Assembly: GCA_951406725.2 (NCBI GenBank)
Contig: OX597816.1
Coordinates: 96,720,001 to 96,784,000 of the forward strand
Direction of reading: 5' to 3'
DNA from: Octopus vulgaris
Lineage: Eukaryota
DNA: 64,000 nt
Position numbers: made by a program
Shown here: piece by piece, positions 50,301 to 53,300 of the stretch
Layout of the letters: every line of letters starts with the position of its first letter
Position numbering within the stretch: position 1 is the first letter of the stretch

Positions 50301-53300
50301 GAAGTGATGGAAGGTTTTTAACTTCGACCTGCGACCTCAGCTGTGTCATTTAAGGTTCAAGTGGACAGGAGACGACCTACATAGGTAGGAATTTCTGCTG
50401 TTGTATGTCTGTCCTTCTAGATGTCATGACCATTATAAATACAGCAATCTGTCAAGGGATGGGAGTGAGAGAGATAGCCAGAGGCGAGACAGCCAGCAAG
50501 TAACTTCGCCAGTTGAGCAGGCAACAAAGAACCAGATATTCAGCATGAACGACCCAACACTGAAGTAGAAGCAGAACATAAACAGACACCACTGAATGCA
50601 CACACAGACACAATGCACACACAGACTCAAAATATGTCCAGTTCTACCTCATCATATCGACACAGTATGTACCCTGTTAATTTCTTTTTGGCCAGCTCAA
50701 AGTAAGTTGGTAATGTCATGTGAGATTTTTGGTGTATACAACAAGTAAATGCAAGTGTCGTTTAAATAAATTATTTAAACTACAATCCGATGCTTTCCAA
50801 TTGTTTTACTTTGATGTTGCCCCCATGCCTATTTCACCTGCTACCTCAACATCTTTTGCTACACCTTTCCCACCACATATGTAAACAATCTCATACTTAC
50901 TATGAAGGTAACTTAAAATCTAAAAGTTGAAATTAATAACAAATAAATAATGCTGAAATATTAACCAACTAATTCAAAGTAGTCATAATCTCTCATTTAA
51001 GTACTGAAACCTTATAATGCGTCAATACAATATAGGTTTATTGTCTTGTTTACTTGAAAATAACATCACCAACACCAAAAAAGAAAAAAAATTACAGGAA
51101 AGATTACATCGCATTTAGATAAATAAATTTTGAATATATTAAGTTCTAGTATATTAACTTGCTTCATACACTCCATTCAATATGAATCTCCCTTGCAGAA
51201 ATACTGCATTTGTTTACACATAAAAAAATTATTCATAAATATGTTATGTTGTATGTACTGGGTCTTAGAGTTATACCTTCTAACTGCTATAATAGAGTAC
51301 TTGCAACAGGTTTATTTTGCAATCAGATACATGGGAGAAAAAAACAAAAAATATATAAGAAAAGGCAAGTAACATGTAATGACAGAAGCAAAGGAAATAA
51401 TAGCCATTAAGCATGTAGTTCTAGATATACCATACTTATGCCTAGCCAAACAACCTTACAACATACTGTACTGGTTAATAATAGCACAGTATTATGAGTA
51501 AAACTATGGATCTTTGAAGTACTCTGATCAAGATATTACAATTTAAGACCATATTGATGTTCTCTGCTCCCAAGTTTGGGAAACCTGCAAGTTCGTTTGT
51601 TAGCTCATGGACAAACTACTTACATGAGTAGTTTGTTCATGAGTGGGTAGCAAGGAAAGTAGGAGAAAACTGATAATGACAATGATATTTATGATTGTGT
51701 ATGCTATATTTTTTTTACTCTTGAAGCTATCATGTACTTTTATGTCAGGTCTGTGAGTAGGTTTTTTACTCTGTTAGTGTTTAATATCAGAATGTTTAAA
51801 TACTTTGTGTTTTGTCTCTGTGGAATACATGCATTTATGCTAAAAATTTATATATATATAGATATAAATTTTTAGCATAAATGCATGTATTCCACAGAGA
51901 CAAATCACAAAGTATTTAAACTTGTTAATCCACAAGTAAAACAATATATATATTGTTTTACTTGTGGATTAAAAAGGCAAGCAATGGTATCATATAGGAG
52001 AGATCTCCACAATTATTCAAGCAAACCACTTGGGAATATTGGTACTTGTCATATGAAATCATTGGTTCCCTTGTTAATACAAAATAAAGAATATTTATCC
52101 CACAATATGAAGTTGAATATGCATTCTCACTATTTGATACTAGCATGTATGTGTGTGTATTATGTGCAAGACAGGAGAAAGTAAAGGAAATAAGACATCT
52201 CATTCTACTTGCTTTACTCTACCAAACACATGTTCTTTACCTAGTCTACTAGCCATGGACAACAGTGCTATTCAGGTAACATGTCATGCACATATCAAAT
52301 TTTATGTGACTATTTAACACCCTACTATCATAAAAAAGAAACAAAACTGAGAATAAATATGGAAAATTAGTTACTCACATAGTGTTCTCTGAATGGAATA
52401 TGAATGGGATTGATGATGCTAGTTAGGACATCACACTTTATCACCATAGGAATATCATCTATAAGAAAAGATTATGTCAGATAAGTTATACATGAACAAT
52501 TAATGAGACAACATTGATTTTGAACTTTAAAACCTTAAAATATCAAAGTTTTTGAACGGGATACTTAATTTTTATCACCTAGTTAATGGTTACGTATCCA
52601 ACTGACCAGGTCATAGAAGTGCAATGAAACTTTTTCACATTTCATAGTAGAAAGTAACATCAAGAAGTAAACAAGAAGCGAATATAACATCATTTGTATG
52701 TTCTTAAATGGCTAAAATGATTCTTCTACAATGTAACTGCTTAAGCATACATACATTATATATAGGAGCTACAAACTTGTGATATAGAGGACAACTGGGA
52801 ATTCCTGTGGGACAACTTGCTGAGTGCCACAGACCAAATCTGTGGGTGGTGCAAAGTCACAACCAGACCTTGGGTAATGTGGTGGTGGGACAATGCAGTA
52901 GACAGGACCATTAGAGCAAAGAAACAGGTCTTGAAGGACTGGAAGAGTTGGGTAGCAGAGAACTGTATGAGACAGCCAGAAGGGAAGCTAGGGGACAGGT
53001 ATATCTAGCTAAGGGAAAAGCAAAAAAGAAGTTTGCCTATGTCCAGCAATGAGAGGACCAGAGAACTGAAGTGTTTTGGATTGCAAGACAGTGTGTGAGA
53101 GAAAATTGTGATGTCATGGGAGAGAAATGTGTCCGCATGGATGATGGTGCACTTGAATTTAATGATTCTGCAAAGAAAGAAGCTTGGAAATGTCATTATG
53201 AAAGACTGCTGAATGTGGAGGATGAATTGGGGGATGAGAGTCTACCTAACGATGACGCAATTGAGGGACCAGCCACCCAAATTGACAGTACCTTGGTAAA

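What the first reader, a model, noticed from the sequence alone, without database searches (positions are those of the whole stretch)
51794..51972. Independent second instance of the twin fold-back scar in apparently unique intronic DNA
Seen: A (~56 bp)-(TA)-A', a ttg linker, then B' (20 bp)-tatata-B. The arms resemble no repeat I can see in the window, so this is not obviously a MITE. One mismatch between A and A' argues for a real, aged event rather than a read artefact. The geometry is the same as 19528-19995, including a 3-nt junction between A' and B'.
Basis: partly seen in the sequence, partly recalled or inferred. Interest (0 to 1): 0.72.

Follow-up and report, generated by a model that had tools for sequence, protein, structure and literature searches.

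The report
Twin palindromes at a TA microsatellite
Two back-to-back, almost perfect DNA palindromes, each centred on a short TA repeat, look like the scar of a break in that repeat where both broken ends folded back and copied their own flank before being rejoined.

Summary
Window 51794-51972 is A(55 nt)-TA core(18 nt)-A'(55 nt), then TTG, then B'(20 nt)-(TA)4-B(20 nt). There is one mismatch in the unique arms and one in the TA core. Between the two TA cores, 75 of 78 nt are reverse complements of the outer flanks.

The same geometry, also with a 3-nt junction, occurs at 19528-19995 with unrelated arm sequence. There the outer arm boundary cuts through an old interspersed repeat, so the arm is native flank and not a transposon end. 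A third young TA-pivoted inverted duplication, with a different layout, lies at 35767-36602. These three loci hold every duplicate of at least 93% identity in the window.

Best reading: local, microsatellite-pivoted fold-back copying of both flanks, followed by end joining. This is a two-sided form of known fold-back or snap-back templated insertion. A serial replicative template switch gives the same product and cannot be separated from it here.

MITE origin and assembly artefact are unlikely but not excluded. No eukaryotic genome resource was available, so genome-wide copy number, the orthologous state and the claimed M1AP intron were not checked.

The parts
51794..51848 (.). Arm A of palindrome 1: native left flank, 55 nt
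   Evidence: Pairs with 51867-51921; one mismatch at 51810/51905. No other copy in the window.
51849..51866 (.). TA core T1: 18 nt of TA repeat with a G at 51861; pivot of palindrome 1
   Evidence: The symmetry centre lies between 51857 and 51858. The G breaks the pair 51854/51861.
51867..51921 (.). Arm A': inverted copy of A
51922..51924 (.). 3-nt junction (TTG) between the two inverted copies
   Evidence: Alternatively part of an extended B' with one mismatch (I2).
51925..51944 (.). Arm B': inverted copy of B, 20 nt
   Evidence: Perfect match to B.
51945..51952 (.). TA core T2, (TA)4; pivot of palindrome 2
51953..51972 (.). Arm B of palindrome 2: native right flank, 20 nt
   Evidence: No other copy in the window.
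19528..19891 (.). Sister locus, palindrome 1: 151-nt arms, with a nested doubled core of the form (CA)n-AGA-(TA)n-TCT-(TG)n
   Evidence: The unique part 19528-19640 matches 19891-19779 at 99.1%, 1 mismatch in 113. The boundary at 19528 lies inside an old repeat copy.
19892..19894 (.). Sister locus, 3-nt junction (TCT)
19895..19995 (.). Sister locus, palindrome 2: 49-nt perfect arms around a TA core
   Evidence: (I13).
35767..36602 (.). Third young TA-pivoted inverted duplication with a different layout (a-T-b'-T-a'-T-b), inside a SINE-like repeat that carries an internal microsatellite
   Evidence: 35767-35971 matches the reverse complement of 36157-36361 at 97.6%. 35980-36172 matches the reverse complement of 36386-36578 at 97.9%.

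Best explanation
The ancestral site was plain A-(TA)n-B. The TA tract is self-complementary and prone to hairpins and cruciforms. It broke, or a fork collapsed in it, leaving two 3' ends that both finish in TA repeats.

Each end snapped back on its own TA repeat and primed DNA synthesis on its own flank. The left end made A' (55 nt) and the right end made B' (20 nt). The two extended ends were then joined with a 3-nt junction (or a 1-nt overlap). The product is A-(TA)-A'-TTG-B'-(TA)-B.

The result is a neutral scar: two adjacent hairpin- or cruciform-capable palindromes.

Shown: the geometry, the local origin of the inserted DNA, the TA pivot, the recurrence at a second unrelated locus, and the youth of the event.

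Inferred: the break, self-priming at both ends, the end joining, and the ancestral state.
For: 1. Of the 78 nt between the two TA cores (51867-51944), 75 are reverse complements of the outer flanks, with 1 mismatch. The remaining 3 nt are the junction.
2. Both pivots are TA repeats with no spacer.
3. The same layout with a 3-nt junction occurs at 19528-19995. Its arms share no similarity with these, so what recurs is the layout, not a sequence family.
4. At that locus the arm boundary 19528 lies inside an old repeat copy. The copy aligns without interruption across the boundary to 26512-26342 (79%), 55199-55022 (77%) and 3158-3008 (73%). The arms themselves are 99.1% alike. So the arm is native flank that was copied in place.
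5. Of the 51 merged TA tracts of at least 8 nt, strongly palindromic flanks occur at the 6 tracts inside these two loci. Two others score 20-26: 29326, explained by a different inverted repeat, and 55935, low-complexity. All four TA-centred palindromes sit in two adjacent pairs.
6. Every duplicate in the window of at least 93% identity and at least 30 nt (5 of 5 rows) is inverted, local and TA-pivoted. Interspersed repeats have a median identity of 76%.
7. Published experiments show the steps are feasible. In yeast, fold-back inverted insertions at a break range from 10 to over 150 bp; they are made by hairpin priming, synthesis, displacement and ligation to the other end (PMC11724301; abstract and passages). 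Snap-back SD-MMEJ has been described, with TA/AT as a frequent primer repeat (PMC5728401; passages). AT/TA repeats form hairpins and cruciforms that are processed by Mus81-Mms4, Slx4 and Mre11 (PMC12972899; abstract).
Against: - No ancestral or orthologous allele was seen, so the A-(TA)n-B state is assumed.
- Sequence alone cannot separate a two-ended break from serial replicative template switching or from two successive events.
- The third locus (35767-36602) is not a twin. It is better explained by a single long template switch, which shows that a replicative route operates at TA tracts here.
- The cited fold-back experiments describe one-sided events. I found no report of the two-sided product in searches.
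- The junctions show no clear microhomology.
- Genome-wide copy number of the arms is unknown.
Confidence: 0.5

Rival explanations
1. The product and local origin are the same, but there was no two-ended break. A nascent strand stalled in the TA tract and switched template several times, in the manner of MMBIR or template-switch mutation. It folded back in the TA tract to copy A', jumped to copy B', then switched back within the TA tract. Alternatively, two separate one-sided template switches hit the same tract in succession.
For: The third locus, a-T-b'-T-a'-T-b at 35767-36602, fits a single template switch of about 400 nt. One junction has 3-nt microhomology (TAT) to the TA tract and the other has none. 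Template-switch mutations are reported to create perfect hairpins in one event (PMC10710096; abstract). The doubled core of the first locus shows repeated events at one tract.
Against: A single four-point template switch yields one contiguous inverted fragment. The twin needs two fragments in the 'wrong' order (A' then B'), so three switches or two events. Two independent events landing exactly 3 nt apart at both loci is less parsimonious. The arm divergences within each twin are compatible with one event.
Confidence: 0.27
2. Two steps: a tandem duplication of A-(TA)-B, then inversion of the B-A segment by recombination between the two TA tracts. The tracts are their own reverse complement.
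For: It is formally the same end product. TA tracts can act as inverted repeats of each other. The doubled core at 19643-19777 can also be read as a tandem duplication.
Against: No direct duplicate of at least 93% identity exists anywhere in the window, so no un-inverted intermediate is seen (0 of 5 rows are direct). The model needs two rare events at each of two loci.
Confidence: 0.05
3. Mobile DNA. Either two hairpin-like MITEs with a TA centre inserted side by side, or the footprint left by excision of a transposon whose transposase makes hairpins on flanking DNA.
For: The window does contain palindromic, MITE-like single-copy elements: 40421-40829, 42348-42777, 29233-29371 and 39295-39380. 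MITEs that target TA microsatellites are documented in plants (PMC8449440, passages; PMC4486113, search listing only). A 64-kb window cannot reveal a low-density family. Both palindromes here end in TTAA by my reading.
Against: - The arms of the two twin loci are unrelated, and neither has another copy in the window.
- No target-site duplication flanks either palindrome or the pair (my reading).
- The insert between the TA tracts is the reverse complement of the flanks, which an incoming element would not be.
- At the sister locus the arm boundary cuts an older repeat.
- Side-by-side insertion exactly 3 nt apart would have to happen twice.
- Inverted additions of 20 to 151 nt are far longer than usual excision footprints (recalled, not tested).
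Confidence: 0.08
4. Assembly or sequencing artefact: a fold-back chimeric read, or a consensus error at a TA hairpin.
For: All three young structures sit at TA tracts, which are hard to sequence. No reads were available to check.
Against: - A fold-back chimera runs back along the opposite strand. It does not return to the correct downstream flank through a second palindrome and a 3-nt junction.
- The arms carry substitutions: 1 in 55 and 1 in 113 nt of unique arm.
- The same geometry occurs at two unrelated loci.
Confidence: 0.05

Closest known systems
Local fold-back (snap-back) templated inverted insertions at double-strand breaks: SD-MMEJ, polymerase-theta end joining, Pol-delta fold-back (PMC11724301, PMC5728401, PMC10622511)
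   Same: The inserted DNA is the reverse complement of the adjoining flank. It is primed from a short self-complementary sequence at the end. Reported size range is 10 to over 150 bp. It is joined to the other end with little or no homology.
   Different: The published cases I read are one-sided and induced in yeast or fly cells. Here both ends appear to have folded back, the primer is a natural TA microsatellite, and the product is fixed in a genome sequence.
Template-switch mutations, four-point model (PMC10710096; bioRxiv 10.1101/038380, search listing only)
   Same: They create perfect hairpins from unstructured sequence in one step by copying nearby sequence in reverse complement.
   Different: A single event gives one contiguous inverted fragment. 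The twin has two fragments in non-contiguous order. The third locus (35767-36602) does fit the single-event model.
Palindromic AT-rich repeats (PATRRs) of human translocation breakpoints (PMC1851657, search listing only)
   Same: Near-perfect, spacer-free palindromes with an AT-rich centre that can extrude cruciforms.
   Different: PATRRs are about 190-600 bp, AT-rich throughout, and defined by their role in translocations. Here the arms are ordinary flank sequence, the palindromes are 48 and 128 bp, and no rearrangement role is known.
Microsatellite-targeting MITEs: pineapple mt-MITEs, MuTAnT, Micron (PMC8449440; PMC4486113, search listing only)
   Same: A block of DNA bracketed by TA microsatellite on both sides.
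   Different: Those blocks are multicopy elements unrelated to the DNA outside the TA tracts. Here the block is the reverse complement of that outside DNA.

Membership tests
Fold-back / snap-back templated inverted insertion | The inserted sequence is the reverse complement of the immediately adjacent flank | tested here: met
   A' matches A at 54 of 55 nt and B' matches B at 20 of 20.
Fold-back / snap-back templated inverted insertion | A short self-complementary primer sits at the pivot | tested here: met
   Both pivots are TA repeats of 18 nt and 8 nt, with no spacer.
Fold-back / snap-back templated inverted insertion | Joined to the other end with 0 to a few nt of microhomology or filler | tested here: met
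   The junction is 3 nt (TTG), or a 1-nt overlap if B' is extended. The sister locus has TCT.
Fold-back / snap-back templated inverted insertion | Derived state relative to an ancestral site that lacks the inverted copies | not testable with these tools
   No eukaryotic genome collection was available. Genome contigs holds only bacteria and archaea.
MITE / microsatellite-targeting MITE | Multicopy family with shared sequence | tested here: inconclusive
   No other copy in the 64-kb window and no similarity between the two twin loci. The genome as a whole was not searched.
MITE / microsatellite-targeting MITE | Target-site duplication flanking the element | tested here: not met
   No direct repeat flanks either palindrome or the pair (my reading). 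TTAA at the arm ends is part of the palindrome itself.
MITE / microsatellite-targeting MITE | Element sequence independent of the host flanks | tested here: not met
   The block between the TA tracts is the reverse complement of the flanks. At the sister locus the arm boundary cuts an old repeat.
Single template-switch mutation (four-point model) | One contiguous reverse-complement fragment replaces or is inserted near its source | tested here: not met
   Two fragments occur in the order A' then B'. A contiguous copy would read B'-(TA)-A' (my inference).
PATRR-type palindromic AT-rich repeat | Spacer-free near-perfect palindrome with an AT-rich centre | tested here: met
PATRR-type palindromic AT-rich repeat | Several hundred bp, AT-rich throughout, and mediating recurrent rearrangement | not tested
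   The sizes here are 128 and 48 bp. Any rearrangement role cannot be assessed from one sequence.

The most novel reading that the evidence does not exclude
In this genome TA microsatellites act as a nursery for palindromes. A break in a TA tract is repaired by fold-back at both ends, turning a harmless microsatellite into two long perfect palindromes. These are themselves more fragile and can go round again, as the doubled core at 19643-19777 suggests.

Three young events in 64 kb would mean tens of thousands genome-wide. That would be a lineage-specific mutational signature that keeps seeding long perfect hairpins in transcribed DNA, as raw material for small-RNA or RNA-editing substrates. 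It would also be a natural model for how PATRR-like fragile palindromes are born.
Probability: 0.25. Interest if true: 0.7.

Novelty: new variant of a known kind. Interest (0 to 1): 0.48.

Why it matters
Fold-back priming and template switching are mostly studied in induced breaks in yeast, in flies and in cancer genomes. How long palindromes arise in germline genomes is less clear.

A clean natural product in which both ends of one TA tract carry inverted copies of their flanks would document palindrome birth at a microsatellite. It recurs at an unrelated locus, and a third TA-pivoted inversion lies nearby. It also gives a simple pattern, X-(TA)n-X'-N(0-5)-Y'-(TA)m-Y, that can be counted genome-wide.

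For this single locus the consequence is probably nil. It is a neutral scar in non-coding DNA that can fold into two hairpins.

Tried and rejected
- Rfam over the whole window: 0 matches at gathering score, so no known structured RNA.
- Pfam on 82 stop-to-stop ORFs. These were 80 of the 88 that passed my length (at least 85 aa) and composition filter; I dropped 8 repeat-derived frames at 19507-19903, 31654-32012 and 45380-45637. I added two shorter frames at 18807-19262. Only transposon remnants turned up: a Mos1-type HTH at 19026-19262(-), and RVT_1 at 30212-30661(-) and 37815-38300(+). Nothing near 51.8 kb and no host-gene exon, so the M1AP intron claim stays unverified.
- A strict scan for small twin footprints between neighbouring TA tracts (195 tract pairs) found only the nested core of the first locus and one low-complexity pair. 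The anchoring was too strict to recover the main loci, so this is a weak negative.
- The TA tract at 29326 scored above background. It proved to be an 89% inverted repeat with a 63-nt spacer and a different orientation relative to the TA tracts, so I set it aside as MITE-like.
- A nested SINE insertion was considered for 35767-36602 and rejected. The inverted copy carries 137 nt beyond the point where the three older copies of the repeat end, and that stretch is otherwise unique in the window.
- ODIRA-type inverted triplication was considered from its search listing, and the DUP-TRP/INV-DUP layout from memory only. Both require three copies of one segment, which is not seen.
- Literature: the search on cephalopod genomes returned only irrelevant chloroplast papers, because 'SINE' matched 'sinensis'. 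The PATRR-origin search gave listings that I did not read further. Searches returned no title or abstract describing two-sided fold-back palindromes at a microsatellite. This is not proof that none is in print.
- My impression that the repeats look cephalopod-like is recollection only and was not tested.

Full report
**What is there**

Window 51794-51972 holds two adjacent palindromes.

- Palindrome 1 is 51794-51921, with 64-nt arms, 97% complementary and no spacer. By my indexing it is arm A 51794-51848 (55 nt), an 18-nt TA core 51849-51866 with a G at 51861, and arm A' 51867-51921.
- One search places its two mismatches at 51810/51905 (unique arms) and 51854/51861 (core).
- After a 3-nt junction (TTG, 51922-51924) comes palindrome 2, 51925-51972. 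It is perfect: B' 20 nt, (TA)4, B 20 nt.
- One search also offers an extension to 51921-51976 with one mismatch. In that reading A' and B' would abut with a 1-nt overlap. Three extra matches are too few to decide.
- Complementarity falls to background immediately outside the arms.

**More than chance**

- Ten first-order Markov simulations of the window produced no hairpin scoring at least 13 with loops up to 12 nt. The real window produced 23, of which 7 are not low-complexity.
- Folded as single-stranded DNA, 51780-51990 forms exactly the two hairpins at -82.9 kcal/mol. Two hundred shuffles gave -17.0 +/- 2.9 (z = -22.6).

**The comparison locus**

Window 19528-19995 has the same layout.

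- Palindrome 19528-19891 has 151-nt arms at 98%.
- A 3-nt junction (TCT, 19892-19894) follows.
- Palindrome 19895-19995 has 49-nt perfect arms. Both pivot on TA repeats.
- The centre of the large palindrome is itself doubled: a CA-run, AGA, (TA)9, TCT, a TG-run, then (TA)5, then the same again with (TA)18. This can be read as a second round of the same event or as a tandem duplication of the core.
- Outside the microsatellite the arms differ at 1 of 113 positions.

**Local copy or mobile element?** Four results bear on this.

1. Of the 78 nt between the two TA cores at the locus in question, 75 are the reverse complement of the DNA outside the cores (55 nt from the left, 20 nt from the right). 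The other 3 nt are the junction. An element that had inserted into a TA tract would not mirror its host flanks.
2. Neither arm has another copy in the window, and the arms of the two twin loci are unrelated. What recurs is a geometry, not a sequence.
3. At the sister locus the outer arm boundary, 19528, lies inside an old interspersed repeat. When the query is extended leftward, that repeat aligns without interruption across 19528 to 26512-26342 (79%), 55199-55022 (77%) and 3158-3008 (73%). The arm is therefore native flank, and its partner is a truncated inverted copy made in place.
4. A self-comparison of the whole window found only 5 duplicate rows of at least 93% identity and at least 30 nt. 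All 5 are inverted and local, and they sit at these two loci and at a third, 35767-36602. The long palindrome 19528-19891 aligns at only 89% because of its doubled microsatellite core, so it is not among these rows. Interspersed repeats of at least 60 nt have a median identity of 76%. So the youngest duplications here are not a young transposon family.

**TA tracts**

The window has 51 merged TA tracts of at least 8 nt. Flanks that are strongly palindromic across the tract occur at the six tracts inside the two twin loci. Two further tracts score 20-26. One is 29326, which belongs to an 89% inverted repeat with a 63-nt spacer and a different orientation. The other is 55935, which is low-complexity. 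The four TA-centred palindromes are thus arranged as two pairs, each 3 nt apart. This argues that each pair formed together or in a coupled way.

**The third locus**

Window 35767-36602 is also young and TA-pivoted but is laid out differently.

- A SINE-like repeat with an internal microsatellite reads a-T-b.
- Inside its microsatellite sits an inverted copy of about 400 nt of itself, giving a-T-b'-T-a'-T-b.
- Arm identities are 97.6% and 97.9%. Outside the microsatellite there are 2 mismatches in about 196 nt and 0 in 177 nt.
- The inverted copy lacks the last 24 nt of the repeat. It includes 137 nt that lie beyond the end of the three older copies and are otherwise unique in the window. A nested retroposition is therefore unlikely.
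- One junction has 3 nt of microhomology (TAT) with the TA tract. The other has none.
- This fits a single long template switch. It shows that TA tracts here pivot more than one kind of inverted duplication.

**Mechanism**

A TA repeat is its own reverse complement. A 3' end that terminates in TA can pair with itself and prime synthesis back along its own flank.

If a TA tract breaks, both ends finish in TA. If each folds back and the two extended ends are joined, the product is exactly A-(TA)-A'-junction-B'-(TA)-B. I take this two-ended fold-back as the most likely route (confidence 0.5).

The individual steps have experimental support:
- Yeast breaks acquire inverted copies of the adjacent flank, from 10 to over 150 bp. 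They arise through hairpin priming, synthesis, displacement and ligation to the other end (PMC11724301; abstract and passages).
- Snap-back synthesis from short inverted repeats, with TA/AT a frequent primer, is described in flies (PMC5728401; passages).
- Fold-back priming extended by Pol delta is described in yeast (PMC10622511; abstract).
- AT/TA repeats form hairpins and cruciforms that are processed by Mus81-Mms4, Slx4 and Mre11 (PMC12972899; abstract).

Not shown here: the break itself, which polymerase or nuclease acted, and the ancestral state. An equally geometric variant cannot be told apart. In it, cruciform cutting gives two hairpin-capped ends that are then nicked far from the tip.

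**Rivals**

- Serial replicative template switching, or two successive one-sided switches, yields the same sequence (0.27). The third locus favours the existence of that route. However, the twin needs three switches or two precisely adjacent events. A single four-point switch gives one contiguous inverted fragment, not A' followed by B'.
- Tandem duplication followed by inversion between the two TA tracts is formally possible (0.05). No direct young duplicate exists in the window.
- Mobile DNA (0.08). The window does contain older single-copy palindromic elements at 40421-40829, 42348-42777, 29233-29371 and 39295-39380. TA-targeting MITEs are known in plants (PMC8449440, passages). A 64-kb window cannot exclude a family. 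The mirror relation to the flanks, the lack of target-site duplication, the unrelated arms and the cut repeat at 19528 all argue against it.
- Artefact (0.05). A fold-back chimeric read does not return to the correct downstream flank through a second palindrome. The arms also carry substitutions. No reads could be inspected.

**Comparison with what is known**

The locus works like a fold-back templated insertion and meets the features of that class that I could test. The derived state could not be tested.

It differs from the published cases I read in three ways: it is two-sided, it is pivoted on a natural microsatellite, and it is fixed in a genome. Searches returned no title or abstract describing such twins. 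That is not proof of absence. I therefore rate it a new variant of a known kind.

**Left open**

- The organism was not identified.
- The statement that the site is an M1AP intron was not tested. The Pfam scan of 82 long ORFs found only a mariner-type HTH and reverse-transcriptase fragments, and Rfam found nothing.

**Verdict**

This is a real, young, local scar. It is most likely fold-back copying of both flanks from a TA microsatellite. It recurs in the same window, it has no evident function, and it is of moderate interest as a natural record of how palindromes are born.

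Noticed in passing
window 35767-36602: A third young TA-pivoted inverted duplication, laid out a-T-b'-T-a'-T-b. About 400 nt of a SINE-like repeat plus 137 nt of its flank is copied in reverse into the repeat's own internal microsatellite. Arms are 97.6% and 97.9% identical. One junction has 3-nt microhomology to the TA tract.
   Followed up: partly
whole window: All 5 duplicate rows of at least 93% identity and at least 30 nt are inverted, local and TA-pivoted. No young direct duplicate exists. Interspersed repeats have a median identity of 76%.
   Followed up: yes
window 39295-39380: A hairpin with roughly 24-nt arms and a spacer of about 24 nt, bracketed by TA repeats on both sides (a short TA run on the left, 39374-39399 on the right). 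This is the layout expected of a microsatellite-targeting MITE. The arm length is my reading; one search gives 79.6% identity over the span.
   Followed up: no
window 42348-42777: A 430-bp palindrome at 86.7% identity. Its right arm abuts the TA tract at 42764-42797, and a long TA tract lies about 75 nt to its left. It is single-copy in the window.
   Followed up: no
window 40421-40829: A 409-bp palindrome at 84% identity with a non-TA centre. The inner 171 bp has 27-nt terminal inverted repeats. It looks MITE-like and is single-copy in the window.
   Followed up: no
window 55636-55830: A complex 195-bp palindrome (48-nt inner arms with 2 mismatches, and a duplicated 31-nt unit in the right half). 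It lies directly after a TA-rich array of about 217 bp at 55418-55634.
   Followed up: partly
window 51604-51643: A small hairpin 150 nt upstream of the finding: 17-nt arms with one mismatch and a 6-nt loop. It is not TA-centred.
   Followed up: no
window 20627-20902, 42953-43224, 47283-47593, 35980-36227: A SINE-like interspersed repeat family that carries an internal TA/CA microsatellite. It accounts for some of the window's 51 TA tracts.
   Followed up: partly
window 19026-19262 (-), 30212-30661 (-), 37815-38300 (+): Transposon remnants: a Mos1-type mariner HTH domain just upstream of the first twin locus, and two reverse-transcriptase fragments.
   Followed up: no
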